A stretch of DNA of 64,000 nucleotides, from the IMG/VR virus record IMGVR_UViG_3300035696_000016, positions 56,591-120,590 of that record, one strand, 5' to 3'. Positions 6,143-56,252 of this stretch are shown piece by piece. A program made the translations under genes and the position numbers. Each line of letters begins with the position of its first letter. Within the stretch, counting starts at the first letter, position 1. This DNA comes from a virus. The notes under the pieces were generated by a model, which was not told where the DNA came from, made no database searches, and saw only the letters and a list, made by a program, of their open reading frames with translations.

Positions 6143-6895
6143 ATGCTTACAACATTGCGTGAAAGGATCAAATCCTATGAGGATCAGTCCGATATAAAAT
6201 TATTGAAAAAACTTCCAGTCATAACGATTGTGAATGGAAGGCAATTTAAGAAACTTACGTCGTTATTAAATAAACCATTCGATATTAATTTTTTTGAGAT
6301 ATTTACTGCAACGGCAATAAAACTAATGCAAGAAATTGATGGAAGTGTATTTTCATATTCTTTTAATGATGAAATTGTAATTATTAGTCGAAACGATCAA
6401 ACAAACGATACACAGCCATATTATGACAATCGAGTGCAAAAAATAGTTTCAGCAACAGCATCGATTGCAAGCATTGAATTTAGTAAAATGGCGGGAGCAA
6501 AGAATGTAGACTTATTCGGAGATCCGATATTTACGAGCAAGTGTTTTGTCGTCCCTCATATTGGAGAGGCAATAAATACATTGATAGCAAAACAGCAACA
6601 ATGTTTTCATATAGGGTTATATCAATGTTGTTTTTACAACTTGGTAAAACAACACGATATTGAAATAGTAAAAGAGACATTGGCTAAAAAAACCGTTGAT
6701 GATAAGTTAGAGATTTTAATGGAAGATTTTGGAATAGATTTTAACGCCCTGCCCTTGACAATCCGCCGAGGCGTGGGAGTATATAGGGCAGTGGCGGAGG
6801 GGCTTGACAAACCGCGGAAAAAGATTTATATTAACACGGAACTTCCCGTTTTTGCCAAGGCTCCGGAGTTTTTGAAAGATATTTTGAATGGATAA
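6143..6895 (+). CDS. tRNA(His) guanylyltransferase Thg1-like protein (first catalytic Asp appears replaced)
   Basis: KSYE, IVNGRQF (family RxDGxxF), KPFD, NDEI (family SDE), RVQKIVSATASIAS. Confidence 0.8.
   Translation: MLTTLRERIKSYEDQSDIKLLKKLPVITIVNGRQFKKLTSLLNKPFDINFFEIFTATAIKLMQEIDGSVFSYSFNDEIVIISRNDQTNDTQPYYDNRVQKIVSATASIASIEFSKMAGAKNVDLFGDPIFTSKCFVVPHIGEAINTLIAKQQQCFHIGLYQCCFYNLVKQHDIEIVKETLAKKTVDDKLEILMEDFGIDFNALPLTIRRGVGVYRAVAEGLDKPRKKIYINTELPVFAKAPEFLKDILNG
6804..6832 (+). promoter_or_regulatory. sigma70-type promoter upstream of the small tagged-ORF cluster
   Basis: TTGACA-17 nt-TATATT inside the 3' end of the Thg1-like gene. Confidence 0.5.
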
Positions 6896-7163
6896 ATTAT
6901 ATTACTTAACTCCGTGGCAGAAAAAACAAGATGATTTTTATTTTGCACGATATTCCATTGGTGATAATTTTAGACGAGCAATAGTATATCTAATCGAACC
7001 ATACAAGAAAACTAATGATAGTGAATGGGCTGGTTCGGAAACTGGTAATAAATTGTGCAAAACCAAAAAAGAAATTATGAAACGCACAGATAAAGAGTTG
7101 GTGGATCGCGGGTATATCTTACTAACGCAAGAACAATATGATAAACTCATAATTTTAGTATGA
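6888..7163 (+). CDS. small protein, YLTPW scaffold family, C-terminal tag
   Basis: YLTPW ... GYILLTQEQYDKLIILV*. Confidence 0.8.
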   Translation: MDKLYYLTPWQKKQDDFYFARYSIGDNFRRAIVYLIEPYKKTNDSEWAGSETGNKLCKTKKEIMKRTDKELVDRGYILLTQEQYDKLIILV

Positions 7164-7429
7164 ATAAAGTATATTTTTCACCTTGGATTGATGTTGGAAC
7201 ATACCATTGGGAAAGAAAATCTTTTAGTAAAATATATTTTGTCTATTTATATGATATTCATAGATTGGATAATTATTCATGTTCAGCCTGCATCGATGGT
7301 ATGTCTATATATCATATAGATGTAAAAGGGAAAATAAATGCTTTCAATCATATGAATAAATGGCTTGCAGATAATAAATGTGTTTTGTTGTCCCAAGAAC
7401 AATGGGATAAGTATCAATTACTAAAATGA
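7160..7429 (+). CDS. small protein, YLTPW scaffold family, C-terminal tag
   Basis: YFSPW ... VLLSQEQWDKYQLLK*; ATGA overlap. Confidence 0.8.
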   Translation: MNKVYFSPWIDVGTYHWERKSFSKIYFVYLYDIHRLDNYSCSACIDGMSIYHIDVKGKINAFNHMNKWLADNKCVLLSQEQWDKYQLLK

Positions 7430-7704
7430 ATAAAGATAAAATCCTAAAACCATACGAACAAACCGGCGATGGTAATTATGTCCGTTATTCATTAACGCAT
7501 ATATATTATGGCGTTGTGTATAAACATAGCAGCATTAATGTATGGTATAGTTCAGAAAATTGGAGTGGTGATGATCAACTCGGTATATCAATACCGTATG
7601 GCTCAAAAGAAGAAGCAATGGCTGCAACGGATGAGGCATTAATAAAAGAAGGATTTACAATATTAACACAGGAACAATACGAAAAATTGTTGTTATTACT
7701 ATGA
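7426..7704 (+). CDS. small protein, YLTPW scaffold family, C-terminal tag
   Basis: ILKPY ... GFTILTQEQYEKLLLLL*; ATGA overlap. Confidence 0.8.
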   Translation: MNKDKILKPYEQTGDGNYVRYSLTHIYYGVVYKHSSINVWYSSENWSGDDQLGISIPYGSKEEAMAATDEALIKEGFTILTQEQYEKLLLLL

Positions 7705-7946
7705 AAAGAAAATATGTATCACCTTATATTGATAATAAAAGATATATAATCAATGATCCACAAGGACAATTTTTCTCGGTTCAACCGTGCATCGGCAACG
7801 AAGCATTGGATGGAATGTGGTATTATTCTATGGGTTATTTTCCATCAAAAGAATTGACGATGGAAGCCCTTGATAAACAACTAATTAAGCAAGGATATAC
7901 ATTATTAACACAGGAACAACTTGACAAACTCACCATATTATTCTAA
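7701..7946 (+). CDS. small protein, YLTPW scaffold family, C-terminal tag
   Basis: YVSPY ... GYTLLTQEQLDKLTILF*; ATGA overlap. Confidence 0.8.
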   Translation: MKRKYVSPYIDNKRYIINDPQGQFFSVQPCIGNEALDGMWYYSMGYFPSKELTMEALDKQLIKQGYTLLTQEQLDKLTILF

Positions 7947-8223: not shown

Positions 8224-8252
8224 GAAAAAGAAAATGAGTAAGAAAAAGAAAA
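8208..8252 (+). repeat. 18-bp tandem repeat, 2.5 copies (AAAAGAAAATGAGTAAGA)
   Basis: Read directly; duplicates a stop/start junction. Confidence 0.9.
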
Positions 8253-9401: not shown

Positions 9402-10205
9402 ATGTCGAATACAGATACTACAACTAATCTTAATGGTCAATGTTCAATATGTGAAGGATGGAATTGCAACACTGGATATTATGTTAGTAATGGCGGAAAT
9501 ATAAAATGTAATTACTTAAGAGAATTAAGTAATGAAAATATTTTTCTAAGATCGGAGATTGTTGTGCTAAAACAATCTATTGCTGATTTAGAAATTAAAA
9601 CCTTGACTAAAAAAGATATAATGAAAATATTCGGCGATATAGATCATAATCTAAATGTGTCGCCTCATCACGAAAAAAATATGGCATATTTACGAAATCT
9701 ATTACAACATAAAAATCTTTCCATTGAAAGCAGATATGTTATTTTTCAACAAGCAATAACTGGAAAATATTCTTTTTTAATCGAAGGGTATTTTACCTAC
9801 ATAGTCAATGAAAATGTATTAGATTTTGTAGATTTTCTGAAATATAATATGGATGACGAAGAAGAAAATATATTAATTGAATTTATTAAAACAAAATCTC
9901 ATTATATATTTTACGCGCTTACATTATTTTTTCGATTAGAACGACCAAAACTATCCGAGTTTCTCGAAGACATTATGTATGAAACTATTATTGAAAGACA
10001 TGTGAATCCTATATATTCACAAAATCCTCGTTTTACAAGTGGAAATTGGTCAGTGTATAGAGTATTAGATGCGTATGGGAGCCCAAATCTCGGTAAGGCG
10101 CTATCGGTGATAAAGAAAATATCAGCACCATATGTATTGAATAATGAAATTAAAGCCTTCGTGCAAAAATATCCCGAAGCAGAAAAATATGCGATGTTAA
10201 TATGA
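9402..10205 (+). CDS. hypothetical protein with C-terminal tag
   Basis: 267-aa ORF ending AEKYAMLI*. Confidence 0.7.
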   Translation: MSNTDTTTNLNGQCSICEGWNCNTGYYVSNGGNIKCNYLRELSNENIFLRSEIVVLKQSIADLEIKTLTKKDIMKIFGDIDHNLNVSPHHEKNMAYLRNLLQHKNLSIESRYVIFQQAITGKYSFLIEGYFTYIVNENVLDFVDFLKYNMDDEEENILIEFIKTKSHYIFYALTLFFRLERPKLSEFLEDIMYETIIERHVNPIYSQNPRFTSGNWSVYRVLDAYGSPNLGKALSVIKKISAPYVLNNEIKAFVQKYPEAEKYAMLI

Positions 10206-10446
10206 TGATTAATTGGTTAAATCGATTATTAGGAAAACCTTTTTATATTAAAGATATAAATAATTGGTATAAACCTATTAAAATATGGTATAATAAATAT
10301 GGTGAATTACATAATCCGGACGGACCGGCCGTCGAATATAAAAATGGCACCGCTACTGAATACTGGATCAATGGAAAACGTATCTTTCAACTTGACGGCA
10401 AACGCATTTATGGCAAAAACAAAATAGAAAAATATGCGATGTTAAT
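10181..10446 (+). repeat. 21-bp exact direct repeat AGAAAAATATGCGATGTTAAT (10181-10201 and 10426-10446)
   Basis: Read directly; each copy encodes EKYAML(I) at the end of consecutive genes. Confidence 0.9.
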
Positions 10447-10450
10447 CTAA
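10202..10450 (+). CDS. small protein with one HxxDGPA-type repeat and C-terminal tag
   Basis: LHNPDGPAVEY...EYWINGKR; ends IEKYAMLI*. Confidence 0.7.
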   Translation: MMINWLNRLLGKPFYIKDINNWYKPIKIWYNKYGELHNPDGPAVEYKNGTATEYWINGKRIFQLDGKRIYGKNKIEKYAMLI

Positions 10451-10755: not shown

Positions 10756-11295
10756 ATGCACTTAAACCATATCATCAACGAACTTGACAAACAAATCACG
10801 GCATCAAAAACGGAATTAGTCTTACTTGAAGAAAGAAAAATCGCGCTAATAAAGTTAGCAGCGAGATACCCAGATGCTCATTTAGAGAAAAACAATACAG
10901 TATGCATCGATAATCTATGGGACAAGATGTCGTGTATGCGTGTTGCTTGGGGATACGGCTATGGAACATACGGGTCGATGACGAAAGTCAATGTTCGTTT
11001 TTCCGTAGGGAAAAAAGATATGGAAGATGATATCAGGATACATTCATATCCGTATAATAATACAATCGCAAATATTGCATATCTTCCAAATCAAAATGGG
11101 TTGTATCCACGAAGAACAAAAGAAATTACAATACTTGATTACTCAAATATCATTCCAAACGTTTGTCCAAAACGAAAAATCTTCCTAAAACGAATTAGAA
11201 ATTATTTATTAAATATAATAATAAAAGAACAAATGAAAATAAATACCAAATCATATAATACAGATGAGTTCGAGAGGTTAATTTTATTGAAATGA
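10756..11295 (+). CDS. hypothetical protein with C-terminal tag
   Basis: Ends DEFERLILLK*; TGATATA at 10740 upstream. Confidence 0.7.
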   Translation: MHLNHIINELDKQITASKTELVLLEERKIALIKLAARYPDAHLEKNNTVCIDNLWDKMSCMRVAWGYGYGTYGSMTKVNVRFSVGKKDMEDDIRIHSYPYNNTIANIAYLPNQNGLYPRRTKEITILDYSNIIPNVCPKRKIFLKRIRNYLLNIIIKEQMKINTKSYNTDEFERLILLK

Positions 11296-11564
11296 AATAT
11301 CTTTCACCTTGGAAAAAGATCAGTGAAACGGAAGAGGTTATATTCTCACTTGGTTCAAAAGAGCCATTTATTTATATAATCCATGATCCAGATCCAAACG
11401 ATGTCAGAGGCTATGCGACGGCTGGAATGATTAGATTTTCTAATGGTCGATTTAGTTATGATACGCGTGCGGAGGCAAGACAGTTCGTGGAAACTACATT
11501 AATTGATAATGGATATTGTTTTTTAGATGATGAAAGATATGAAAAATTGGAATTACTGATATGA
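11292..11564 (+). CDS. small protein, YLTPW scaffold family, C-terminal tag
   Basis: YLSPW ... GYCFLDDERYEKLELLI*. Confidence 0.8.
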   Translation: MKYLSPWKKISETEEVIFSLGSKEPFIYIIHDPDPNDVRGYATAGMIRFSNGRFSYDTRAEARQFVETTLIDNGYCFLDDERYEKLELLI

Positions 11565-11803
11565 TCTATCTAACGCCTTGGAATAAAGATAATAGACGGC
11601 ATTATGTAAAAACTGGACATGTGTGTGTTATGATCGCCTCATACGAACATCACTATGTTATATGGTTAAATAATCTTTCGTCTGAAATAGAAAGATTTAA
11701 TTGTATTAAGCGAGCAAAACAATATGCTGATAATTATTTAATTGATAATAGATATGTGTTACTGACACAAGGACAAGTAGATAAAATGAGTATTTTGATA
11801 TGA
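11561..11803 (+). CDS. small protein, YLTPW scaffold family, C-terminal tag
   Basis: YLTPW ... RYVLLTQGQVDKMSILI*. Confidence 0.8.
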   Translation: MIYLTPWNKDNRRHYVKTGHVCVMIASYEHHYVIWLNNLSSEIERFNCIKRAKQYADNYLIDNRYVLLTQGQVDKMSILI

Positions 11804-15877: not shown

Positions 15878-16380
15878 ATCAAAGATTAAAAAAAGAAATC
15901 ATTCTAAACATATTTAATGTGATGGGAGTATTCAGGGACAAAACCAATTTTTCGGCATCGACGCTGATCGAACCGTTGATCGAAGAAAAGTTTCTTTTGG
16001 ATAAAAAACTTTCTTTTGAGATCGAAGATGGGACGAAACGCGAAAATCAGGTTTTTGCTGCGACGACAAAAATTGACGGGAATATGATTAAAGTGATGAT
16101 CGCAGATATTATTGATGAAATCCCCGAGTATGCAATAATAATGCAGATGGATAACTTTCCATCGATCGCAATGCGTCTTTCGTTGGAAGACGACGATTAT
16201 GGAACTATGACGTTTCATATCGAAAATAAATGGATAGAAATTGGCACGAGCGCGCAGGCACGCGTGTTAATGGGAATTGAAAACTTAAGCGAGATTTTTG
16301 CTGCTTGGGAAAGAATGATCGACTATAAAGATATGTATAGTGTTTTAATTAGTTTTCTTAATTATGTCGAAGGTATATAG
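15874..16380 (+). CDS. hypothetical protein
   Basis: 168-aa ORF, ATGA-coupled. Confidence 0.7.
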   Translation: MNQRLKKEIILNIFNVMGVFRDKTNFSASTLIEPLIEEKFLLDKKLSFEIEDGTKRENQVFAATTKIDGNMIKVMIADIIDEIPEYAIIMQMDNFPSIAMRLSLEDDDYGTMTFHIENKWIEIGTSAQARVLMGIENLSEIFAAWERMIDYKDMYSVLISFLNYVEGI

Positions 16381-16631
16381 TGTGTCATCGTTGTAATGGT
16401 TTTACAGGCAGGAAAGATATACTTGAATACTATCGTTCATTTATTACTGATGGTTATATAACTATAAAAGATTTTATTAAATTGAAAAATTACACGGATG
16501 AATATCCATTCATAATACAAAATGTCATAGAGATGGATTTTTATACGGTATTTAGCACTGATATTCAGCCAGAAGAGTTGTTTCCAGATTTAACAAAAGA
16601 ACGATTAGAAAAATTATTGGTGTTGCTATGA
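16380..16631 (+). CDS. small protein with C-terminal tag
   Basis: Ends KERLEKLLVLL*. Confidence 0.7.
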   Translation: MCHRCNGFTGRKDILEYYRSFITDGYITIKDFIKLKNYTDEYPFIIQNVIEMDFYTVFSTDIQPEELFPDLTKERLEKLLVLL

Positions 16632-16873
16632 GAGCATACTTGTATCCTTGGGAAAAATTAGTAATAAATGATCGACATTCATATAAACGACGCGTTCATA
16701 ACGGTGGTGTATATTTTGTGGTGCATTCCGCAAATCAATGGTGGGCTTGGAACGCTGATACTTGTGAAAGTATTCCGTATGAAACTGCCGAAGAAGCAAT
16801 GAATGCGTATGATGATTGTCTTCGTAAATTAGGATACATATTGTTAACGGAAGAAACGATGTTATTGTTATGA
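16628..16873 (+). CDS. small protein, YLTPW scaffold family, shortened tag
   Basis: YLYPW ... GYILLTEETMLLL*. Confidence 0.78.
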   Translation: MRAYLYPWEKLVINDRHSYKRRVHNGGVYFVVHSANQWWAWNADTCESIPYETAEEAMNAYDDCLRKLGYILLTEETMLLL

Positions 16874-17091
16874 ATACCGATGAAATTATTGAAGCTATGA
16901 TAGCAGGCAGTAGAAGTCGTGCTATTAAATATATTATTAATGACTATCGATGGTATAAAAAAGAAATTAATAATAAGAGAAGTCTAAAATCTTTTTGTAG
17001 TGATCTATATAATGCGGAGACCAGCAACAAATTAATGAAAAAATATAATCTATCAGTTGAGGACATAGAAAAATATATGTTATTGCTATGA
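16870..17091 (+). CDS. small protein with C-terminal tag (paralog of the next ORF)
   Basis: SR.RAIKYIINDY ... VEDIEKYMLLL*. Confidence 0.75.
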   Translation: MNTDEIIEAMIAGSRSRAIKYIINDYRWYKKEINNKRSLKSFCSDLYNAETSNKLMKKYNLSVEDIEKYMLLL

Positions 17092-17306
17092 TTGAAAACA
17101 TAGATTCTTTTGAAATTAAAACGCGTCAGGATGCCATTAAGTGGCTACTATACGATTATAAGTTATTTTTAGATACAAGCACCGGTTCATTCGGAGAATA
17201 TATTGAAGGTAATAGTTATGATTTTTATAATCAGTTGGCTGATCAGGTAATGCGAGACTGGGATATTACTATCGAAGAAGTAGAGAAATATTTAATATTA
17301 AAATGA
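17088..17306 (+). CDS. small protein with C-terminal tag (paralog of the previous ORF)
   Basis: TRQDAIKWLLYDY ... IEEVEKYLILK*. Confidence 0.75.
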   Translation: MIENIDSFEIKTRQDAIKWLLYDYKLFLDTSTGSFGEYIEGNSYDFYNQLADQVMRDWDITIEEVEKYLILK

Positions 17307-22745: not shown

Positions 22746-22958
22746 ATGCTGAAAACCGATCATTCTATTCATTGTATGTGCCGTAATAAAAAACTAAATT
22801 GCTACATTGCAAGCAATAGTGATATTTTTGTATGGGCATGTTTTATTAATAATAAAACTGAAATACATCTTAAGAAACAGCAGTATTCAATATCCAAATA
22901 TATAGAAGCGAACAGTCTTTCAGAAGAATATATAGAAAAATTATTATTACTGATATGA
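22746..22958 (+). CDS. small protein with C-terminal tag
   Basis: Ends EEYIEKLLLLI*. Confidence 0.7.
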   Translation: MLKTDHSIHCMCRNKKLNCYIASNSDIFVWACFINNKTEIHLKKQQYSISKYIEANSLSEEYIEKLLLLI

Positions 22959-23239
22959 AAACCATATTCGTTGCTAATTGTCCAAGATGCTTAAAACCAT
23001 TGCATAGAGCGTTTTCTAACGGTGTAGAGATACATTGTAAATGTGGGTATCTATTAAATAGTATAGATTCTAAGATAGAATGTTCCTATTATTACAGAGG
23101 ATATTTTATTTTTTCATCGGAACGAATTGGTGAAACTGCGTTTCATCCTGATGATGGTAATGATATTAAATGGATTAAAAAAGTTTTAGACCCACTAATA
23201 ACGAATGAAAAATTAGATAAGATTTTGTTGTTGATTTAG
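22955..23239 (+). CDS. zinc-ribbon protein with C-terminal tag
   Basis: CPRC..CKCG; ends NEKLDKILLLI*. Confidence 0.72.
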   Translation: MKTIFVANCPRCLKPLHRAFSNGVEIHCKCGYLLNSIDSKIECSYYYRGYFIFSSERIGETAFHPDDGNDIKWIKKVLDPLITNEKLDKILLLI

Positions 23240-23623: not shown

Positions 23624-23640
23624 TAATTATATGCGGAATT

Positions 23641-23955
23641 ATGAATAGATCGTATTTAGAACCATATAGACAAAGTCATCATAAGTCTAATGAAGAGAAT
23701 TATTCTATTGGTCGATATTTATTAAATGATAAAAGTATGTTTCCCATACCGATTGCCCGTATTGCACGATCTCGTTTAACCAAATTATGGGGATGGGAAT
23801 ATCAAGATATCGACGGTAAATGCGAACCCATGTGGATTTACGATCTTCCCGATAGGATAGAAGAATTAAAAGAAAAGATGGATCGTAAGTTGATTGAATG
23901 TGGATATATTTTATTGACGCAGGAACAATGCGAGAAATTTAAGTTATTGATATGA
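23641..23955 (+). CDS. small protein, YLTPW scaffold family, C-terminal tag
   Basis: YLEPY ... GYILLTQEQCEKFKLLI*. Confidence 0.8.
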   Translation: MNRSYLEPYRQSHHKSNEENYSIGRYLLNDKSMFPIPIARIARSRLTKLWGWEYQDIDGKCEPMWIYDLPDRIEELKEKMDRKLIECGYILLTQEQCEKFKLLI

Positions 23956-24010
23956 AAAACCCTATAAAATAGGCATATTTTTGTATTTTACTGAGGTAAA
24001 ATGGAAGAAA
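23950..24010 (+). repeat. 61-bp HNH leader, dispersed repeat (other copy at 46436-46496)
   Basis: 54/61 identical by manual alignment. Confidence 0.85.
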
Positions 24011-24920: not shown

Positions 24921-26693
24921 ATGAAATCATTGGTAATTGTGGAAAGTCCATCAAAAATTAAAAAAATAAAAGAGATATTAGGTGATGAGTATGAAATACT
25001 TGCCAGTTTTGGACATGTAAAAGATCTCGCTTCCGGAAATAAGCACGGCATAGGGATCGATATCGAAAATAATTTTCGACCTCATTACGTTTTGCTCAAA
25101 GATAAAATTGAGGTAATTGATAATATAATCAATGCTTCGTGTGAGTGTAATGAAATACTATTATGCACGGACGCAGATAGAGAGGGTGAAAAAATTAGTG
25201 CCGATGTCGCCGATATTTTAAAATCCACAGGCAAGCCAATTTTTAGGGCAGTATTTAATGAAATAACTAAGTCCGGTATAGAAAAAGGAATAAAAGAAAA
25301 GCACGCAATAGATGCTAATATGGTAAGGGCTCAGGAAGCAAGACGCGTCCTCGATCGTATCGTTGGATTTACCGTTTCACCATATCTAATGACTGCGTAT
25401 GCTAATAATCTTTCGGCGGGAAGAGTTCAATCAGTGGCAACACGCTTAATATCAGACAGAGAAGCCGAGATCGACGCATTTAAACCAGAAGAATATTGGA
25501 CTTGTGGTATAAAATTGCAAACTCAATCACGAGAGATATTTTCAGCCAAGTATGATGGCAAGATTAAAAATAAAGATCAGTCAGATAAATTAGTTTCTTT
25601 TATACAAGAAAATAAGCACTTCGTTGTATCAAAGGTTGTTTCCAAACAGGTTAAAGAGAAACCGCCAGCACCACTTATAACTTCCTCGTTGCAACAAGTA
25701 ATGGCAAAACGTGGTTGGGAACCAGAGAAATGTATGAGCGTTGCCCAAGGGTTATATGAGAACGGAGTAATTACATACATCCGTACAGATGCAACATCGA
25801 TGGCAGAAGAAGCGATTGCCGACATTAGAAAATGGATCAAAGACAATAATTACGATCTACCCAAAACCAAAAATATTCATGCAACGAAAGAAACAGCGCA
25901 GGCGGCACACGAAGCGATTCGCCCTACAAACATAAACGCATTACCCGATAGTGGCTATATGAGTGGTGATGAAAAAGAATTATATTCAGTTATATGGCAA
26001 TATGCTATTGCAAGTCAGATGACGCCAGCAATATGGAACACCTTAAACGTAAAAATCGTAAATAAAAACGATAATAAAATTGTTTTCAAGGCATCAGGAA
26101 AAGCGTTAGCAGATCATGGATATCTAAAAATATTCGGTGATGTTGATGCTGGCAAAATCGAAATACCCAATCTAATAGAAAAACAAGAATTGTTATTGGA
26201 TGATAAATCTATAAGAGCTGATCAAAAATATACACAGCCTCCGCCAAGATTTAATGATGCTTCGTTGCTAAAAGAATTAGAGCAAAAACAAATCGGAAGA
26301 CCATCGACCTTTTCAGAAATTATTAAGAAAATATCAAATAGACATTATGTTGAGAAAACTAATAATACATATAAACCGACAGAATTGGGAAAACAAATAA
26401 CTAATTGTCTATCAGAATTATTTACATTTATGGATTATAGTTTTACTTCGAAGATCGAAGAAGAGTTAGATAAGATAGCAGAAGGTAAAATAACTCATAC
26501 AGAAGTATTAAAACAGTTTTACGATATTTTTTCCAAAGAATTAGCAACAGCATATAGGAACAGGTTGGGCGATAAAGTTTTATGTAAAAAATGCAATCAA
26601 AATATGATTGAACGAGAAGGTAAGTTCGGAAAATTTAATGTATGTATAAATCCGGCGTGTAGAAGTATTGAAAATATAAAAATGGTGGCATAA
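24921..26693 (+). CDS. topA: DNA topoisomerase I (type IA)
   Basis: LVIVESPSK, TDADREGE, SAGRVQS, ITYIRTD, AHEAIRPT, IGRPST. Confidence 0.96.
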   Translation: MKSLVIVESPSKIKKIKEILGDEYEILASFGHVKDLASGNKHGIGIDIENNFRPHYVLLKDKIEVIDNIINASCECNEILLCTDADREGEKISADVADILKSTGKPIFRAVFNEITKSGIEKGIKEKHAIDANMVRAQEARRVLDRIVGFTVSPYLMTAYANNLSAGRVQSVATRLISDREAEIDAFKPEEYWTCGIKLQTQSREIFSAKYDGKIKNKDQSDKLVSFIQENKHFVVSKVVSKQVKEKPPAPLITSSLQQVMAKRGWEPEKCMSVAQGLYENGVITYIRTDATSMAEEAIADIRKWIKDNNYDLPKTKNIHATKETAQAAHEAIRPTNINALPDSGYMSGDEKELYSVIWQYAIASQMTPAIWNTLNVKIVNKNDNKIVFKASGKALADHGYLKIFGDVDAGKIEIPNLIEKQELLLDDKSIRADQKYTQPPPRFNDASLLKELEQKQIGRPSTFSEIIKKISNRHYVEKTNNTYKPTELGKQITNCLSELFTFMDYSFTSKIEEELDKIAEGKITHTEVLKQFYDIFSKELATAYRNRLGDKVLCKKCNQNMIEREGKFGKFNVCINPACRSIENIKMVA

Positions 26694-27007
26694 TGAGTGA
26701 TAAAATAATTTTAACGCCTTGGATGCGTCAGGAAGATTATTGTTATGAAAGGTTAGATTTTTTCCAAAAATATTATACTTGGAGAGGAAGAGTTAAACAA
26801 GGATATCATATAAATTACCCTAAAAAATGGAGTTGGCGTTATTGGCATGTAGCAGAAAAACATGCCGACTATTATACTACCGATGATAATCAATTATTCG
26901 ATACTCGTGAAGAGGCACAAGCATTCGTTGATCAAAAGCTAATTGAACAGGGACGGTATAAACTCTTAACAGAAGAAGAATACGAAAAACTTGCAATTTT
27001 AATTTAA
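26693..27007 (+). CDS. small protein, YLTPW scaffold family, C-terminal tag
   Basis: ILTPW ... GRYKLLTEEEYEKLAILI*. Confidence 0.8.
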   Translation: MSDKIILTPWMRQEDYCYERLDFFQKYYTWRGRVKQGYHINYPKKWSWRYWHVAEKHADYYTTDDNQLFDTREEAQAFVDQKLIEQGRYKLLTEEEYEKLAILI

Positions 27008-27053
27008 CGTGTTATATAATGACAAAGGAGCGTGTGCATACACACGTATATGA

Positions 27054-27948: not shown

Positions 27949-27951
27949 TTA

Positions 27952-39128: not shown

Positions 39129-40370
39129 ATGCAAATCCAATTACAAGAAACTGAATATTGCAAAATCCTCGTTCAAGTTGAAGTTGATCAAAACGAAATT
39201 AATGAAAAACGTAATGAAGTAATAGCTAAGTTTAAAGGATATAAGGTTCCTGGATTTAGAAAAGGTCGCGCTTCATTAGAAGCAATTAAAATTCATTACA
39301 AAAAAGAAATACAAAACACTCTAACTCAAAAGCTTGCTGAGTATGCAGTGGAAAATACATTGGCAGAAAATAATGTTAAACCGTTTGGTCGCCCACAATT
39401 CACACAAGTTAAATTAGATAATAATAAATTTAATTGTGAGTTTTCTCTTCATAAACTGCCAGATTTTGAACTTGGTGCTTATAAAGATTTTGAGATTCCA
39501 AAACCTGCAGCACCAATATCGGCAGATGAGTTGTCATCAAAAATGCTTCAAGAGTTGCGTGATAAAAATGGAATAACTAAAGCGTATGATGAAAATGATG
39601 TTGTTCAAATGGGTGATAATGTTATTATTGATTACCAAGCATATAAAGACGGATATGCGATTGAAGATTTTAAAAACTCAGGAGAACTAATTAATGTTGG
39701 TAAAATTGGTATTCCGGGATTTAGTGAAAATATTCTTGGAATGAAAGTTGGTGAAACAAGAGAGTTTGAGCTATTGTTTGATGCAAAAATTAAACCTGAA
39801 TATAATAATACAATAATTAAATTCGAAGTTAAATTACATATGGGATCTAAGGTATCACCAGCAGCATTAGATAACGATTTAGCTAAAATATCTGGAACAG
39901 AATCATTGGATAAATTAATTGAAGCAGTTAACTCTATGGCAAATAATAGAGTTAAGGAGCTAGAAAAATCTGGTATCATTGATCAAATTACAAAAAGATT
40001 AATTGCAGGACATGATTTTAAGGTTCCTGATTGGATTAGCGTTGCGGAAGCACAAGTAAATGCACGCAACAATAACAAAGATTGGGCATCTATTCAAGAT
40101 AATGAAAAAGAGTTATTTATAAAATCAGCAGAAGATAATATTAGACTATCATTGATTTTAGATAAGATTAGGGAAGATGAACCTGAGGCGCAATTAACTC
40201 AAGAAGAATTATTGAAAATAGCCCTAACGAATCTACAACAACATACACAAGAACCACAAAAGGTATTCGAGGAGCTGTATAAGAACGGTCAGCTTGGTCT
40301 TTTTCTAAATAGAATCAAGGATGAATATACATTAGATTTTTTGAGTAAAAATTGTAAAATAATTGAATAA
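39129..40370 (+). CDS. tig: trigger factor
   Basis: PGFRKGR ribosome-binding loop, GD.V.IDY, IPGF...ILGMKVGE FKBP domain. Confidence 0.92.
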   Translation: MQIQLQETEYCKILVQVEVDQNEINEKRNEVIAKFKGYKVPGFRKGRASLEAIKIHYKKEIQNTLTQKLAEYAVENTLAENNVKPFGRPQFTQVKLDNNKFNCEFSLHKLPDFELGAYKDFEIPKPAAPISADELSSKMLQELRDKNGITKAYDENDVVQMGDNVIIDYQAYKDGYAIEDFKNSGELINVGKIGIPGFSENILGMKVGETREFELLFDAKIKPEYNNTIIKFEVKLHMGSKVSPAALDNDLAKISGTESLDKLIEAVNSMANNRVKELEKSGIIDQITKRLIAGHDFKVPDWISVAEAQVNARNNNKDWASIQDNEKELFIKSAEDNIRLSLILDKIREDEPEAQLTQEELLKIALTNLQQHTQEPQKVFEELYKNGQLGLFLNRIKDEYTLDFLSKNCKIIE

Positions 40371-40689: not shown

Positions 40690-41034
40690 ATGAGTATAGA
40701 TAGAAAATCATTAATTGATAAAAGATTTATTCCACTAATTATTAGTGTATTAAATTGGAATAAAGTTAATAATGCAAATCTATCAAGTTTAGCATTGTTT
40801 AAAACCATTGTTATGTTTATAACAATGAATACAGAAGAGATGCAAAACCATATAGGGACAGTTGTTATTGAAAACGGTGATTATAACGATTATTTTATAG
40901 TAGTAGATGATGTTAAACAAAATATAAATGAGTATAGGTGTCTATTAATATCAACTATAGATACAATAATAAAAGATTTTTCAGAATTTAAATGTTTATG
41001 GGAAAATAAAGATAAATATATAATATTGGTATAG
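40690..41034 (+). CDS. hypothetical protein with C-terminal tag
   Basis: Ends NKDKYIILV*. Confidence 0.65.
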   Translation: MSIDRKSLIDKRFIPLIISVLNWNKVNNANLSSLALFKTIVMFITMNTEEMQNHIGTVVIENGDYNDYFIVVDDVKQNINEYRCLLISTIDTIIKDFSEFKCLWENKDKYIILV

Positions 41035-46436: not shown

Positions 46437-46496
46437 TATGAAAAATCCTATAAAATAGGTATATTTTAGCATATTTTTGAGGTAAAATGGAAGAAA
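46436..46496 (+). repeat. 61-bp HNH leader (other copy at 23950-24010)
   Basis: Contains CCTAT-AAA-ATAGG hairpin, mini-ORF MKNPIK*, late-type motif and GAGG SD. Confidence 0.85.
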
Positions 46497-50872: not shown

Positions 50873-52012
50873 ATGGATAATAAATTAGAGTCATTTTTTA
50901 AATCATTCGCAGATGCAGATGAAGAGTTAGATTTTAGATTCGCAGATCAGTTCGGAGCCAAGGTTCCAGTTATTAAAACTGGAAGTCATGGTCTCGATGA
51001 CGCATTGTCATCGGGCGGATACCCATTCGGTAGAATAATTCAATTATATGGTCCGCCACACAGCGGTAAGACATTGATGTCTATGCTTGCAATTTTAGAA
51101 GCTCAGAAACTAAATCCTGAATCTAAACAATTATTTATAGATGCCGAAGGCACATTTAGTGCTATATGGGCTCAGACACTCGGAATAGATATATCCCGTG
51201 TTTTGATTGTAGATGGTGATTCTGCGGTCAATGGCAGAAGGTTGTTCGAAACATTGTTGGGAACACCCAAAGAAGACAGCAAACATATTTTGGTTGGGAA
51301 ATCAAAAGAAGGGTTTTTAGACAAGGTTGCGGATAAAACATTCGATTTTAATTTAGTCGTATTGGATTCGCTTGGTGCGATCATACCGCCGGGTGAAGAC
51401 GTTTCAGCGGTAGGTAAAATGAATATGTCATTGCTTGCTCGTTTCCTTTCAACAACAATGAAAAAACTATCGTTAGAAGTTAAGAAAGCTAATCTTCCAT
51501 TCATAATCATCAATCACAAAAGAGACGGTATGGATCCATATGGGCCAGACCACACATTTTCAGGCGGCAATACGTACGGACATTTTCTATCTTGTAATGT
51601 GTATTTCGAAGCCATACAAAGAAAAGACGCTCAAATCTTAAATGATAAGGATCAAAAAATCGGACATATGATAAGAGCAAAAGTTGAAAAGAGTAAATTC
51701 GGTATTACACCAAGACAATGCGAGTTCAAAGTAGATTTTTCAAAAGGCGTCGTAGATAAGCATGAAGAAATTGCCAAACTTGCATTGGATTATAATGTTG
51801 TAGAAAAACCAACATCAGTTTCACATCAATATGGAGATTATAAATGGGTAGGTTTCCCAAAGTTTTGTGAAGCATTGTCAGAAAATCCAGTTCTATTACA
51901 AGAAATCTCAGATAAAATTGAAGTTGCAAGAGATTCAAAGTTTAATAGAAAACCAAACACAGAAAATGTTGTTGAAGTAAAATCAGAAAAAAAATCAAAG
52001 AAAGTAGTATAG
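50873..52012 (+). CDS. recA: RecA/UvsX recombinase
   Basis: GGYPFGRI.QLYGPPHSGKT, FIDAE, VVLDS, ARF.S, IINH, SGG, KSK. Confidence 0.93.
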   Translation: MDNKLESFFKSFADADEELDFRFADQFGAKVPVIKTGSHGLDDALSSGGYPFGRIIQLYGPPHSGKTLMSMLAILEAQKLNPESKQLFIDAEGTFSAIWAQTLGIDISRVLIVDGDSAVNGRRLFETLLGTPKEDSKHILVGKSKEGFLDKVADKTFDFNLVVLDSLGAIIPPGEDVSAVGKMNMSLLARFLSTTMKKLSLEVKKANLPFIIINHKRDGMDPYGPDHTFSGGNTYGHFLSCNVYFEAIQRKDAQILNDKDQKIGHMIRAKVEKSKFGITPRQCEFKVDFSKGVVDKHEEIAKLALDYNVVEKPTSVSHQYGDYKWVGFPKFCEALSENPVLLQEISDKIEVARDSKFNRKPNTENVVEVKSEKKSKKVV

Positions 52013-54072: not shown

Positions 54073-54087
54073 AAATACGTAATATAA

Positions 54088-54096: not shown

Positions 54097-54103
54097 CCAT
54101 GTT

Positions 54104-54670
54104 ATGGCTATAATAATGGGTATCGATGTTTCTACTACTACAATCGGGTGGTGCATATTAAACTATACTCGTGGACAAAAACCAAAGATTATAAGTCATT
54201 CGTTTTATAAGCCATCGAAAAAAGGTAATCTTTTTGAAAGACTAGATCAAACTCGAAAAGATATCCGGCAGGTTGTGGAAAAATATAATCCGGACTATAT
54301 TGCCATAGAGGACTTAATTAAATTTATGAAAGGTAAAAGTAGCGCTACAACGATAATTAATCTTTCAGTATTTAATAGAATGATTGGATTGATGGCATAT
54401 GATTTTTTAGGAAGACCGCCAGATCTATTCAACGTTATGTCTATTAGACATGGTATTCGTCGAGAAGTTGGAGAAAAAAAGCTTCCTGCGAAAGAAGAGC
54501 TCCCACAACATATATCTAAGTTGTTAGGTATTGAGTATCCTTGGATAAAAGATAAAAAAGGTAAAATTAAAGTGGAAAGTTATGATGTAAGCGATGCCAT
54601 GTGCGTTGCATATTATTGTTCATTAATGTTAGAAAGCGGTAAGATAAATGAATCTTCAAGAAGCATATAA
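54104..54670 (+). CDS. RuvC-like Holliday junction resolvase
   Basis: IMGIDVS...GW, IAIE, DVSDAMCVA. Confidence 0.85.
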   Translation: MAIIMGIDVSTTTIGWCILNYTRGQKPKIISHSFYKPSKKGNLFERLDQTRKDIRQVVEKYNPDYIAIEDLIKFMKGKSSATTIINLSVFNRMIGLMAYDFLGRPPDLFNVMSIRHGIRREVGEKKLPAKEELPQHISKLLGIEYPWIKDKKGKIKVESYDVSDAMCVAYYCSLMLESGKINESSRSI

Positions 54671-55616
54671 TATATTGGAAGTACAGGATAATATATCTGA
54701 TCATGAATTAAAATCAGTTTATAAAAAATTAGCAAAACAGTTTCATCCAGATGTATATAAATCTGATAAGGATAAATTTAAAAAAATAAATGAAGCATAC
54801 CAGCTAATTACCGACTATCGTAAAAATCCAGATAAATATAATCCTCATGTCCGTAGTCCATTCCAAGGTGGGTTTAATATTGATTTAAATGATTTATTTA
54901 ACGGATTCAGTAGATCTCAAAAAAATGATATCAATATACAGCCAATAAATTTAAATACTAAAATATCTTTTAAAGAAAGTGTCCTTGGAGTTGAAAAAGA
55001 GGTTTCATATAAGAAAACTATAAAATGTGAAAGTTGTAGTGGTAATGGAAAAGAACCGCAGTCTAATGGTTGTAGTTTGTGTAATGGTTTTGGTAGAATT
55101 ATTCAGCAACAAGGAAATATGCATTACTCTACTGGATGTAATAAATGTCATGGGCAAAATGTAAAACTTAAAGATTGTTTAAGGTGCAAATCCAAAGGTG
55201 CATTAGAAGTCGATGTAAATGTTAAAATAAACATACCGCCCGGTAATTCAACAACATTAAGAATACAGGGAGCTGGAAATTATAGCGGATCAGCTGGAAT
55301 AATGGGTGATCTTTATTCAGATGTATTTTTCAGAGTAGATGTGGAGCCAGATCCAGATCTAAAATTGGATGGCTCTGATGTTGTGTGTAATTTACAATTG
55401 CCATTAATTGATGCGCTAACAGGATGTAGTGTTAATATAAGGACAATTTATGATACTCGTATAATAGATATTCCAGCCAAATCTAAAAATAAAGATGAGA
55501 TAATTATTAATGGATGTGGAATAAAACAAGCGAGAGGTAATCAGCGTGTTATATTAGATGTTGATTATGGTGATACCGAGAAACTTATAGAGTTCCTAAA
55601 ACAAGAAGGAAAATAA
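54648..55616 (+). CDS. dnaJ: DnaJ-like co-chaperone
   Basis: J domain with HPD, CxxCxGxG repeats, C-terminal substrate-binding domain. Confidence 0.88.
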   Translation: MNLQEAYNILEVQDNISDHELKSVYKKLAKQFHPDVYKSDKDKFKKINEAYQLITDYRKNPDKYNPHVRSPFQGGFNIDLNDLFNGFSRSQKNDINIQPINLNTKISFKESVLGVEKEVSYKKTIKCESCSGNGKEPQSNGCSLCNGFGRIIQQQGNMHYSTGCNKCHGQNVKLKDCLRCKSKGALEVDVNVKINIPPGNSTTLRIQGAGNYSGSAGIMGDLYSDVFFRVDVEPDPDLKLDGSDVVCNLQLPLIDALTGCSVNIRTIYDTRIIDIPAKSKNKDEIIINGCGIKQARGNQRVILDVDYGDTEKLIEFLKQEGK

Positions 55617-55617
55617 A

Positions 55618-55959
55618 ATGGCGTTTATAACTAATTGTACCACAAAAGGTTGTCGTAAAGAAATGCAACCATATCTAAATCCCATAACAATGGAGGTTCA
55701 TTGTTCAGAGTGTGATGCTCCGATAGCTAATATTCCAATTTTTACTAAAAATTTAATGAAGAGCCAAAATCAAGTCAAAAAATCAGCCAAAGTAGCTTTC
55801 GCAGTTAAGTGTGCTAAATGTAAAGCGGATGCGTTGCCAAAAATTGACACCAATAATAAATTAGTATGTGCCGGTTGTGGTAATACATTAAATATATCTA
55901 AAATATATGAAAACCAAGTTAGGGAAATAATTAAGAATGGCGGGCATAAAGATCTATGA
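55618..55959 (+). CDS. double zinc-ribbon protein
   Basis: Four Cys pairs. Confidence 0.65.
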   Translation: MAFITNCTTKGCRKEMQPYLNPITMEVHCSECDAPIANIPIFTKNLMKSQNQVKKSAKVAFAVKCAKCKADALPKIDTNNKLVCAGCGNTLNISKIYENQVREIIKNGGHKDL

Positions 55960-56252
55960 GTAAGGCGCAAGATCTTTTAGATACTATTGAGTGGTTGAAA
56001 AGTCAGGAGGGCACCAGTCTTATTTTAAAAGGTGAGCATAAAAAGAATGTTATTAAACGGCTATCCATAGGTATCCTAAAAGGATATGGTATGTCAAGCA
56101 TTAGTGAGGTTTCAGAGATTGAAGCTAAACGGTTGTTGTCAGATTTTATTGTAAATCATAATATTAAATCGTGTGAAACAATGAAGCTTATTGTTGAAGG
56201 GTTATATCCTCAATACACAGAAATATTAAATAAATTATTGTTATTAAAATGA
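55956..56252 (+). CDS. small protein with C-terminal tag
   Basis: Ends EILNKLLLLK*. Confidence 0.7.
   Translation: MSKAQDLLDTIEWLKSQEGTSLILKGEHKKNVIKRLSIGILKGYGMSSISEVSEIEAKRLLSDFIVNHNIKSCETMKLIVEGLYPQYTEILNKLLLLK

What the first reader, a model, noticed from the sequence alone, without database searches (positions are those of the whole stretch)
6888..56252. A shared C-terminal peptide tag on about 20 mostly unrelated proteins
Seen: 19 intact ORFs end in nearly the same motif, about [ED]-K-[LYFMI]-x-[LIMV]-L-[ILVKF]-stop. By ORF end: 7163 DKLIILV, 7429 DKYQLLK, 7704 EKLLLLL, 7946 DKLTILF, 10205 EKYAMLI, 10450 EKYAMLI, 11295 ERLILLK, 11564 EKLELLI, 11803 DKMSILI, 16631 EKLLVLL, 16873 ETMLLL, 17091 EKYMLLL, 17306 EKYLILK, 22958 EKLLLLI, 23239 DKILLLI, 23955 EKFKLLI, 27007 EKLAILI, 41034 DKYIILV, 56252 NKLLLLK. 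The bodies differ: a YLTPW family, a zinc ribbon, an HxxDGPA repeat, and 179- and 267-aa orphans. None of the recognisable core enzymes carries the tag. Codons vary synonymously, so the constraint is on the peptide. 14 of 19 end in A-TGA, which forms a downstream ATG and may explain the variable last residue. Inference: a genome-wide addressing code, in which one partner reads an acidic amphipathic helix with a free hydrophobic C-terminus. Possible roles are docking of accessory effectors on a common hub, a packaging/ejection or compartment-import signal, or a degron; nonpolar C-termini are established substrates of Tsp/Prc, FtsH and Clp proteases. I do not recognise it as a described system.
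Basis: partly seen in the sequence, partly recalled or inferred. Interest (0 to 1): 0.92.

Follow-up and report, generated by a model that had tools for sequence, protein, structure and literature searches.

The report
Shared C-terminal tag on megaphage proteins
About a quarter of the genes in this fragment of a roughly 400-kb bacterial virus encode small, otherwise unrelated proteins that end in the same ten-residue peptide, and related viruses change that ending on all such proteins together, so it looks like an address label read by one partner that is still unidentified.

Summary
All 19 window ORFs end as listed. In the whole 120.6-kb record, 54 of 224 ORFs end in E-x-Φ-[ED]-K-[LY]-L-Φ-L-x-stop, and 86 of 673 do so in a 406-kb near-complete relative. 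The motif is tied to the C-terminus: at 10 bits or more it fits 49 of 224 ends but only 5 of 36,802 internal positions. Exactly one residue follows the invariant Leu. Carriers are small ORFans in at least 84 BLAST-unrelated groups, and no ORF of 300 aa or more carries the tag. Orthologue tails are better conserved than bodies (89% against 73% identity).

The new point is that sister megaphages of the same clade carry the same skeleton with Phe where this lineage has Leu: L-type:F-type counts are 54:1 and 86:3 here, against 4:26, 2:30 and 3:30 in the sister phages. One protein family carries either tail according to lineage. This supports one co-evolving reader and argues against composition, ATGA overlaps or a fold-intrinsic helix.

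Candidates encoded by the phage are a MoxR AAA+/zincin-vWA pair lying among the tag arrays, DnaJ and trigger factor. Six literature searches found no description. Earlier AI notes of this scan report other C-terminal tags on other phage DNA.

The parts
6888..7163 (+). Tagged ORF, 91 aa, YLTPW family, ends ...QEQYDKLIILV; stop overlaps the next start (ATGA)
7160..7429 (+). Tagged ORF, 89 aa, YLTPW family, ends ...QEQWDKYQLLK
7426..7704 (+). Tagged ORF, 92 aa, YLTPW family, ends ...QEQYEKLLLLL
7701..7946 (+). Tagged ORF, 81 aa, YLTPW family, ends ...QEQLDKLTILF
9402..10205 (+). Tagged ORF, 267 aa orphan, ends ...PEAEKYAMLI; its tag-coding DNA shares a 21-nt exact run with that of the next gene
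   Evidence: orthologue in G004 keeps the tail 10/10
10202..10450 (+). Tagged ORF, 82 aa with an HNPDGPA/YxNG-type repeat body, ends ...NKIEKYAMLI
   Evidence: relatives in G004 end KYLTLV, RYLMLV and KYVMLI
10756..11295 (+). Tagged ORF, 179 aa orphan, ends ...DEFERLILLK (the G004 orthologue ends ERLILFK)
11292..11564 (+). Tagged ORF, 90 aa, YLTPW family, ends ...ERYEKLELLI
11561..11803 (+). Tagged ORF, 80 aa, YLTPW family, ends ...GQVDKMSILI
16380..16631 (+). Tagged ORF, 83 aa (N-terminal CxxC), ends ...ERLEKLLVLL
16628..16873 (+). Tagged ORF, 81 aa, YLTPW family, short tail variant ...LLTEETMLLL (three residues shorter)
16870..17091 (+). Tagged ORF, 73 aa, ends ...EDIEKYMLLL
17088..17306 (+). 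Tagged ORF, 72 aa, ends ...EEVEKYLILK
22746..22958 (+). Tagged ORF, 70 aa, ends ...EYIEKLLLLI; absent from the syntenic place in relative G001
22955..23239 (+). Tagged ORF, 94 aa (zinc-ribbon-like CxxC pairs), ends ...EKLDKILLLI; the G001 orthologue ends ELDKILLLI
23641..23955 (+). Tagged ORF, 104 aa, YLTPW family, ends ...EQCEKFKLLI; the G001 orthologue ends EQCEKYMLLI
26693..27007 (+). Tagged ORF, 104 aa, YLTPW family, ends ...EEYEKLAILI. AlphaFold2 model: five strands, a helix, a strand, then the tail as a separate helix at residues 94-103
   Evidence: no PDB fold match
40690..41034 (+). Tagged ORF, 114 aa, ends ...ENKDKYIILV; lies between the trigger factor and DnaE genes and is replaced by untagged genes in G001
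55956..56252 (+). Tagged ORF, 98 aa, ends ...EILNKLLLLK; two genes downstream of DnaJ; the tail is kept in G001 (56-aa form) and in G004
39129..40370 (+). Phage-encoded trigger factor (Trigger_N, FKBP_C, Trigger_C): a candidate reader, not shown to be linked to the tag
   Evidence: present in 6 of 6 clade genomes tested
54648..55616 (+). Phage-encoded DnaJ (J domain, Zn finger, C-terminal domain): a candidate reader, not shown to be linked to the tag
   Evidence: present in 6 of 6 clade genomes tested

Best explanation
The tail is a portable address tag anchored at the C-terminus. It is a short amphipathic helix of about 10 residues, E-x-Φ-[ED]-K-[LY]-L-Φ-L-x-COOH, attached to many unrelated small accessory proteins of a megaphage. 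One common partner reads it. That partner's pocket takes the penultimate side chain (Leu in this lineage, Phe in sister lineages) and probably clamps the free carboxylate one residue further on.

Shown: the tag is peptide-level, tied to the terminus, portable between folds, more conserved than the bodies, and changes in concert between lineages.

Inferred: that a single reader exists, and how it grips the tail.

My preferred reader is the phage's own MoxR-like AAA+ ATPase together with its zincin-vWA partner, which lie among the tag arrays just upstream of the window. I put about 0.2 on this, against about 0.5 for the general claim. On this reading the vWA domain captures the tail, the ATPase remodels or releases the client, and the zincin may trim it, so the tagged proteins would be a client library of that machine.
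For: - Terminus-specific enrichment and a fixed register.
- Carriers are unrelated. The 54 tagged proteins of G000 fall into 47 BLAST components once the tail is removed. The 140 tagged proteins of G000 plus G004 fall into 84. There are no Pfam or PHROG families. AlphaFold2 gives two families different secondary-structure architectures, and in each the tail is a separate terminal helix with pLDDT 84-93.
- In 29 orthologue pairs the last 10 residues are 88.6% identical and the bodies 72.5%.
- Of the 150 best representatives of the KY family (949 at E <= 1e-3), 145 have Leu at -2, 140 Lys at -6 and 142 Tyr at -5.
- Concerted switch between lineages. L-type:F-type C-termini are 54:1 (G000) and 86:3 (G004), against 4:26 (G005), 2:30 (G007) and 3:30 (G008), with 1 to 5 of each expected from the internal rate. 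A body-only HMM of the KY family finds 5 paralogues in another lineage (10 rows for the two overlapping loci L088 and L089), and they end DYL[IVA]F[LMI].
- Reader candidate. The MoxR-like AAA+ has Walker A and B motifs, the 695-aa DUF2201 protein has HEALH and DCSGS, and the DUF444 vWA protein has DCSGS. All lie at G000 19-27 kb between tag arrays.
- In 80 IMG/VR loci holding DUF2201 homologues, small ORFs share tails in 351 pairs, against 47 for an internal control window. Twelve loci have strong tags of their own.
- Print precedent, from passages seen in PMC7159879: vWA is described as the peptide-binding co-chaperone of MoxR, and zincin peptidases as processing small, rapidly diverging proteins with a conserved C-terminal peptide.
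Against: - No binding has been shown and no co-folding was possible with these tools.
- MoxR, DUF2201, DnaJ and trigger factor are present in every clade genome tested, so presence or absence cannot single out a reader.
- G005 has all four but only 26 F-type tails in 802 ORFs.
- Most DUF2201 loci (about 68 of 80) show no tail sharing within 10 kb, and I ran no control set of loci lacking DUF2201.
- The MoxR plus peptidase-vWA pair has been proposed to serve virion assembly (passages of PMC7824862).
- The high pLDDT of the tail helix may mean that it packs on its own body.
- In the KY family the tail is among the most conserved stretches but not the most conserved: its 10-column window ranks 8th of 82.
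- The strong purine-ending bias of Leu and Val codons in the tag is not explained by this reading.
Confidence: 0.5

Rival explanations
1. The tail is a degron. Its non-polar C-terminus, with an upstream acidic/Lys part acting as an adaptor site, delivers the accessory proteins to a host AAA+ protease. They are then short-lived or are cleared at a set time.
For: The last five residues are almost wholly non-polar and the position is strictly terminal. Carriers are small accessory ORFans and never enzymes or large proteins. The phage encodes no ClpP, Lon_C or PDZ domain of its own, so a protease reader would be the host's. From recall, not from a call: non-polar C-termini destabilise proteins in E. 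coli, and the ssrA tag has a two-part adaptor-plus-ClpX layout.
Against: AlphaFold2 predicts the tail as an ordered helix with pLDDT 84-93, not a floppy end. Conservation of ten positions, including charges that flip between lineages (E/D at -7 here, K at -7 and K/R at -9 in F-type tags), is more than known terminal degrons need. Nothing about stability was or could be tested here.
Confidence: 0.15
2. The tail is a chaperone handle. The phage's DnaJ (with host Hsp70) or its trigger factor binds the Leu-rich tail to fold, hold or deliver these proteins.
For: DnaJ and trigger factor are encoded in the window and in 6 of 6 clade genomes tested. One tagged gene lies two genes downstream of DnaJ. 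From recall, not from a call: Hsp70 prefers a Leu-rich core flanked by basic residues (model peptide NRLLLTG), and some J-protein C-terminal domains bind C-terminal peptides.
Against: Hsp70 and trigger factor binding do not need a free C-terminus or a fixed register. Acidic residues at -7 and -10 are unfavourable for Hsp70 (recalled). No Hsp70 is encoded by the phage. Presence of these chaperones does not discriminate between genomes.
Confidence: 0.1
3. There is no dedicated reader. The tail is an amphipathic helix that acts by itself, either targeting proteins to the membrane (like the C-terminal helices of MinD and FtsA, recalled) or driving self- or hetero-oligomerisation of the tagged proteins.
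For: The predicted helix has a hydrophobic face at -8, -5, -4, -3 and -2. F-type tags of sister phages are Lys-rich at -9, -7 and -6, which resembles cationic membrane-targeting helices.
Against: The L-type tag here is acidic (E at -10, E/D at -7). The fixed requirement for exactly one residue after Leu or Phe and the all-or-none Leu/Phe switch between lineages are not expected for lipid binding or generic helix bundling.
Confidence: 0.12
4. All tagged proteins belong to one very diverged paralogous superfamily, and the tail is simply its best-kept structural helix.
For: Tagged genes lie in tandem arrays: 27 adjacent pairs against 12.7 expected in G000, and 34 against 10.8 in G004. Several true paralogue families exist, namely YLTPW with 15 members and KY with 19. 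High pLDDT of the tail is compatible with it packing on the body.
Against: Bodies range from 43 to 267 aa and include zinc-ribbon-like, repeat, beta-rich and helical architectures. There are 84 BLAST components. A structural helix would not switch Leu to Phe in concert across families or keep an exact one-residue overhang.
Confidence: 0.1
5. The constraint is at nucleotide or translation level. The conserved gene end would serve stop-start coupling, an RNA signal, or micro-homology for gene shuffling, and the peptide would be a by-product.
For: Tagged genes overlap the next start more often than untagged small genes: 33 of 51 against 22 of 79 in G000, and 40 of 80 against 91 of 330 in G004. 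Leu and Val codons in the tag are almost all purine-ending. One adjacent unrelated pair shares a 21-nt exact run.
Against: About 35% (G000) to 50% (G004) of tags have no overlap. Positions accept chemically similar residues with dissimilar codons, such as L/Y/F/M at -5 and E/D at -7. At positions with identical amino acids, codon identity between tags of different families is 0.47-0.53, against about 0.27 to 0.75 expected per residue from genome codon use; I did not compute a composition-weighted expectation, so I can only say that no obvious excess is seen. F-type tags show no Leu codon bias. An equally AT-rich phage fragment has no tags.
Confidence: 0.03

Closest known systems
Clamp-binding C-terminal tails of phage T4 gp43, gp55 and gp33 (passages of PMC2988020)
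   Same: [quoted passage not shown] The principle of one terminal peptide read by one reader is the same.
   Different: T4 has three carriers, all DNA or RNA polymerase-related. Here there are 54 to 86 carriers, all small ORFans. The DnaE polymerase of this phage ends in a different acidic tail. No clamp family was found in the phage.
Peptide-processing modules attached to bacterial vWA-MoxR systems (FxSxx-COOH type; Kaur et al. 2020, passages of PMC7159879)
   Same: Small, rapidly diverging proteins whose C-terminal peptide is the conserved part are encoded alongside a zincin-like metallopeptidase and a MoxR AAA+/vWA pair. All of these gene types are present here.
   Different: The motif differs and there are many dozens of carriers per genome. 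The peptidase is fused to the vWA domain. The setting is a phage rather than a bacterial conflict system. Cleavage is untested.
MoxR AAA+ plus metallopeptidase-vWA pair of group 2.2 jumbo phages (Iyer et al. 2021, passages of PMC7824862)
   Same: The same gene pair, along with DnaJ, is noted in jumbo phages.
   Different: That paper proposes a role in virion assembly and the processing of structural proteins. The term 'C-terminal tail' does not occur in its text, and its one 'conserved C-terminal' passage concerns the RNA polymerase beta-prime subunit.
HbYX-type docking motifs (hydrophobic-Tyr-any residue-COOH) of proteasomal ATPases; recalled, not from a call
   Same: A critical penultimate hydrophobic residue is followed by exactly one largely free residue, whose carboxylate is gripped by the receptor. 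This is the logic that best explains the fixed one-residue overhang here.
   Different: Carriers there are the ATPases themselves and the receptor is the 20S proteasome. No homology is implied.
Other C-terminal tags on small proteins of other phages, noted earlier by this scan (AI notes e1-4772764, e1-6058358, e1-5882790, e1-6125196 and others)
   Same: The phenomenon is the same: lineage-specific C-terminal tails on many unrelated small phage proteins, several near MoxR/peptidase-vWA genes.
   Different: The peptides and phage groups differ.

Membership tests
T4-type sliding-clamp-binding C-terminal tails | The phage or host hub is a sliding clamp, and the phage encodes gp45-like or DnaN-like clamp domains | tested here: not met
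   PF02767, PF00712 and PF02916 give no match in G000 or in the 95%-complete G004. PF02916 had no positive control, and a host clamp cannot be excluded.
T4-type sliding-clamp-binding C-terminal tails | Carriers are replication or transcription proteins, including the DNA polymerase | tested here: not met
   DnaE (42927-46436) ends ...DDLFNEGLIDLDDED, not in the tag. The 54 and 86 carriers have no convincing Pfam or PHROG family; the few hits are single members, best E 8.3e-05.
Bacterial beta-clamp-binding motif QL[SD]LF (recalled) | Conserved Gln at the first motif position, then L-x-L-F | tested here: not met
   Position -6 is Lys in 103 of 137 unique tails and Gln is not among the seven commonest residues listed there. 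The hydrophobic spacing at -5, -3 and -2 is similar.
FxSxx-COOH / zincin peptide-processing modules of vWA-MoxR systems | Small, rapidly diverging proteins with a conserved C-terminal peptide | tested here: met
   Bodies are 72.5% identical and tails 88.6% identical in 29 orthologue pairs, and there are 84 unrelated groups.
FxSxx-COOH / zincin peptide-processing modules of vWA-MoxR systems | A zincin-like metallopeptidase and a MoxR AAA+/vWA pair encoded nearby | tested here: met
   DUF2201_N (HEALH) plus a vWA-like domain (DCSGS) at G000 25148-27235, and an AAA+ with nearest atlas clusters AAA_5/MoxR at 23441-24571, lie between tag arrays. This is outside the window.
FxSxx-COOH / zincin peptide-processing modules of vWA-MoxR systems | The FxSxx, RxD or acidic-run motif types, and release of the C-terminal peptide by cleavage | tested here: not met
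   The motif here is E-x-Φ-[ED]-K-[LY]-L-Φ-L-x. Cleavage cannot be tested with these tools.
ssrA-like or non-polar C-terminal degrons | A non-polar extreme C-terminus recognised by an AAA+ protease, giving faster turnover | not testable with these tools
   A non-polar terminus is present. No ClpP or Lon is encoded by the phage. Turnover is unknown.
C-terminal membrane-targeting amphipathic helices (MinD/FtsA type, recalled) | A cationic amphipathic helix at the extreme C-terminus | tested here: inconclusive
   A helix is predicted. The L-type tag is net acidic, while F-type tags of sister phages are Lys-rich.

The most novel reading that the evidence does not exclude
A whole clade of 270- to 480-kb megaphages uses a proteome-wide address code that co-evolves with its reader. 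Roughly 3% (26 of 802 ORFs in G005) to 24% (54 of 224 in G000) of their genes encode small effector-like proteins that end in a Φ-[Leu/Phe]-x-COOH helix. This helix plugs them, as an exchangeable client library, into one phage-encoded machine. The best candidate is the MoxR AAA+/zincin-vWA pair, which would then act in host takeover rather than, or as well as, virion assembly. New genes acquire the tag by inserting next to an existing tail-coding segment.
Probability: 0.2. Interest if true: 0.9.

Novelty: new variant of a known kind. Interest (0 to 1): 0.8.

Why it matters
Large phages are full of small ORFan genes that have no handle for study. A shared tail gives three things.

1. It provides a sequence rule that sorts 54 of 224 ORFs here, and 86 of 673 in a near-complete relative, into one functional class.
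2. It gives a direct experimental hook, because a tag peptide can be used as bait to find the hub these proteins act through.
3. It offers a natural specificity test, because sister phages use Phe where this lineage uses Leu.

In either case the tag could be reused as a portable targeting or stability module.

Tried and rejected
- Composition or AT-rich codon bias is rejected by tail shuffles, by internal against terminal rates, and by a 28% GC phage fragment with no tags.
- ATGA overlap as the cause is rejected, because 18 of 51 (G000) and 40 of 80 (G004) tagged small ORFs have no overlap.
- The tag-coding DNA does not look like a conserved recombination linker. Codon identity at identical residues is 0.47-0.53 between tags of different families, with no obvious excess over the 0.27-0.75 expected per residue from codon use; I computed no composition-weighted expectation. 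Only a few long exact runs exist, the 21-nt one being in the window.
- Known families for the carriers: Pfam and PHROGs give nothing convincing for 54 and 86 proteins.
- Fold matches for the two AlphaFold2 models: Foldseek against the PDB gives no hit at E <= 0.001.
- Phage-encoded Hsp70, ClpP, Lon_C, PDZ_2, DnaN and gp45-like clamp were not found.
- The 'M41-like peptidase' at 41343 has no Pfam family.
- The AAA+ protein has no PDB sequence match at E <= 0.1 and no NCBIfam family.
- Cultured relatives: the DUF2201 protein finds only partial matches of 24-47% identity in 27 phage records, mostly phages of Erwinia, Vibrio and Burkholderia. Megablast of 22 kb of the window finds nothing.
- Telling readers apart by presence or absence failed, because all candidates are present in all clade genomes tested.
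- A link between DUF2201 and the tags was not settled. No control set of loci without DUF2201 was run.
- Literature: six searches found no description of such a tag. Supplementary files were not consulted and might list such motifs.
- Sequencing-run and read-laying tools were not used.

Full report
**What the window is.** The window is bases 56591-120590 of a 120,590-bp virus record, G000. It is 33% GC, nearly all genes lie on one strand, and CheckV rates it 28% complete. Its DnaE-type polymerase is 87% identical to those of two IMG/VR contigs. A family search led to a 406,470-bp relative rated 95% complete, G004, which I fetched whole. G000 is therefore a fragment of a roughly 400-kb megaphage. 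The window encodes a trigger factor, DnaJ, a topoisomerase, an FtsK-like ATPase, an SbcCD-like pair, RecA, RuvC, DnaE, a split DnaG, a Thg1-like enzyme and sugar-modifying enzymes.

**The observation.** All 19 endings and the count of 14 A-TGA stops are correct. The feature is much larger than the window.
- In G000, 54 of 224 ORFs end in [LYFMIA]x[LIMV]Lx. In G004, 86 of 673 do, and 85 of those are on one strand.
- The G004 tags cluster at 240-380 kb and 40-60 kb, and there are none at 120-220 kb.
- The logo from 137 unique tails carries information over about ten positions: E(-10), x, I/L/V(-8), E/D(-7), K(-6), L/Y(-5), L/M(-4), L/I/V/M(-3), L(-2), then I/K/L/V/M/Q(-1).

**Is it more than chance?** Yes.
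- Shuffled tails give a mean of 2.4 tagged ORFs (maximum 8) against 54 in G000, and 5.6 (maximum 15) against 86 in G004.
- A PSSM trained on one genome and scored on the other fits 49 of 224 termini against 5 of 36,802 internal windows, and 66 of 673 against 5 of 124,201. The two genomes share orthologues, so this is not a fully independent test.
- The register is fixed: one residue follows the invariant Leu 54 and 86 times, against 0 to 17 times for any other number.
- A 28% GC fragment of a distant phage has no tagged ORF (0 of 63).

**What carries it.** Carriers are 43-267 aa, with a median near 90. No ORF of 300 aa or more is tagged (0 of 29 and 0 of 112).
- With the tail cut off, the 54 proteins of G000 form 47 BLAST components. 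The 140 proteins of G000 plus G004 form 84, mostly singletons or orthologue pairs.
- Pfam and PHROGs give nothing convincing.
- Two real paralogue families exist. YLTPW has 15 members in G000. The family I call KY has 19 members in the two genomes and 949 representative clusters at E <= 1e-3 in the 1.84-billion-protein library.
- AlphaFold2 models of the two families have mean pLDDT 80 and 85. Their architectures differ: five strands, a helix and a strand in one, and three strands with a helical bundle in the other. In both, the tail is a separate terminal helix of about 10 residues with pLDDT 84-93. Neither has a PDB fold match. I could not get coordinates, so I cannot say whether the tail packs on the body.
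- Tagged genes lie in arrays. There are 27 adjacent pairs against 12.7 expected (maximum 23 in 5000 shuffles) in G000, and 34 against 10.8 in G004. The excess is weaker when only small ORFs are shuffled: 27 against 19.6, and 36 against 15.4.

**Peptide or nucleotide?** The constraint is on the peptide, with one unexplained addition.
- Positions accept chemically similar residues with dissimilar codons.
- Leu uses both the TTR and CTR codon families.
- Codon identity between tags of different families, at positions with the same amino acid, is 0.47-0.53. Genome codon use would give about 0.27 for Leu and 0.64-0.75 for K, E, D and Y. I did not compute a weighted expectation, so I can only say there is no obvious excess.
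- 35-50% of tags have no stop-start overlap.
- Unexplained: Leu codons at -2 to -5 and Val codons at -3 almost always end in a purine. Pyrimidine-ending Leu codons are 5.2% against 25.9% in the interior (p = 1.6e-23), and Val GTR is 24 of 25. Ile shows no bias. F-type tags of sister phages do not show the Leu bias.

**Conservation.**
- In 29 G000/G004 orthologue pairs the last 10 residues are 88.6% identical and the bodies 72.5%. Pairs with 28-38% body identity keep 6 to 10 of 10 tail residues.
- Orthologues in G001 keep the tail, with changes only at the variable positions.
- All 11 metagenomic YLTPW homologues end in the tag.
- Of the 150 best KY representatives, 128 fit the regex and 145 have Leu at -2.
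- The KY tail window is among the most conserved (2.92 against 1.75 bits) but ranks 8th of 82, because a central block is equally conserved.

**The key new result: a concerted lineage switch.** I collected 80 IMG/VR loci that hold homologues of the phage's DUF2201 protein.
- Small ORFs in these loci share four or more of their last seven residues in 351 pairs, against 47 for an internal window and 84 for the N-terminus.
- Twelve loci have strong tags of their own. One resembles ours (KKLxMLx). The others differ (…MVFK, …LLKEII, …LLEKL, …IIxxII[END], …VMES, …LLxxEL).
- Three complete megaphages of the same clade also encode MoxR-like AAA_5, DUF2201, DnaJ and trigger factor. They carry the same skeleton with Phe at -2. 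L-type:F-type C-termini are 54:1 in G000 and 86:3 in G004, against 4:26 in G005 (whole genome, 802 pooled ORFs), 2:30 in G007 (140 kb sampled) and 3:30 in G008 (160 kb sampled). One to five of each are expected from internal rates.
- In F-type tags the acidic -7 becomes Lys and -9 becomes Lys or Arg.
- A KY-family HMM built without the tail finds 5 paralogues in another lineage. They appear as 10 rows because loci L088 and L089 overlap. Their tails read DYL[IVA]F[LMI], and an unrelated 225-aa neighbour ends LLVFG.
- Unrelated proteins changing the same residue together is hard to explain by each protein's own fold. It is what a single co-evolving reader predicts.

**Who reads it?** This is unknown.
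- The phage lacks its own Hsp70, ClpP, Lon_C, PDZ_2 and clamp domains.
- Just upstream of the window and between tag arrays it encodes three relevant proteins (gene order): a YhbH/DUF444 vWA protein (G000 19078-20175, DCSGS); a 376-aa AAA+ with Walker A and B motifs (23441-24571), whose nearest ESM Atlas clusters are viral AAA_5/'MoxR family' ATPases; and a 695-aa DUF2201 protein (25148-27235) with a zincin HEALH motif and a vWA DCSGS motif.
- Passages of Kaur et al. 2020 describe vWA as the peptide-binding co-chaperone of MoxR. They also describe zincin peptidases that process small, rapidly diverging proteins with a conserved C-terminal peptide. This is the closest parallel in print.
- Passages of Iyer et al. 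2021 note the same pair in group 2.2 jumbo phages and propose a role in virion assembly.
- Against a specific link: the pair is present in every clade genome tested, including G005 where tags are few. Most DUF2201 loci show no tags within 10 kb. I ran no matched control.
- DnaJ and trigger factor, both in the window, are equally undiscriminated.

**Comparison with what is known.** The principle of one terminal peptide read by one hub is established for T4 gp43, gp55 and gp33 on gp45 (passages of PMC2988020). From recall, it also holds for SSB tails, ssrA and HbYX motifs. What differs here is the scale (dozens of carriers, 13-24% of ORFs in this lineage), the carriers (small ORFans), the motif itself, and the clade-wide Leu/Phe switch. 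Six literature searches found no description, and supplements were not seen. Earlier AI notes of this scan report analogous tags with other sequences in other phages, some beside MoxR/peptidase-vWA genes. They are leads, not evidence.

Noticed in passing
window 42927-46436 and 46487-47479: The DnaE polymerase and the next ORF (330 aa) end in nearly the same acidic tail (...DDLFNEGLIDLDDED and ...DDLFEEGLIDLDDEENDN). In relative G001 the 330-aa ORF is absent and DnaE itself ends ...GLIDLDDEENDN. The 330-aa ORF is BLAST-related to window ORFs 24317-24919, 42030-42890 and 50176-50871, which lie beside the topoisomerase, DnaE and RecA genes. It looks like a mobile gene inserted at the 3' end of DnaE that duplicated the tail. 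Pfam gives no family for these ORFs.
   Followed up: partly
window about 10181-10205 and 10426-10450: The tag-coding ends of two adjacent unrelated genes (9402-10205 and 10202-10450) share a 21-nt exact run, and both encode EKYAMLI. In G004 the second gene reads EKYVMLI. This is a possible trace of a tag being copied when a gene is inserted.
   Followed up: partly
tag codons genome-wide, e.g. window 7140-7163: Leu codons at -2 to -5 and Val codons at -3 in the tag almost always end in a purine. CTY is 5.2% against 25.9% in the interior, and GTR is 24 of 25. Ile shows no bias, and F-type tags of sister phages do not share the Leu bias. This is unexplained.
   Followed up: partly
L003:13285-13578 (G000 51285-51578, outside the window): A perfect tag-like peptide (EDIEKLQLLA) lies at residues 4-13 of a 97-aa ORF, that is at the N-terminus. 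It is conserved in G004 as EDIEKLRLLA. It may be the remnant of a lost stop codon or a mis-called start.
   Followed up: no
L013:1488-1562 and L032:11830-11903 (G004): The 406-kb relative encodes only two tRNAs, Lys(UUU) and Ile(UAU). They decode AAA and AUA, which are the codons of the commonest last residues of tags that overlap the next start (I and K). The Ile tRNA gene lies next to an array of KY-family genes.
   Followed up: no
window 32528-33136 and 56249-56992: The DnaG primase appears to be split into a zinc-ribbon ORF and a Toprim/catalytic ORF that lie 23 kb apart.
   Followed up: no
window 55956-56252 vs L004:20766-20936: The tagged ORF downstream of DnaJ is 98 aa here and in G004, but only 56 aa in G001, with the tail kept.
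   Followed up: no
L002:8298-9269 (G000 27298-28272, outside the window): A LAGLIDADG homing endonuclease gene lies immediately after the zincin-vWA gene.
   Followed up: no
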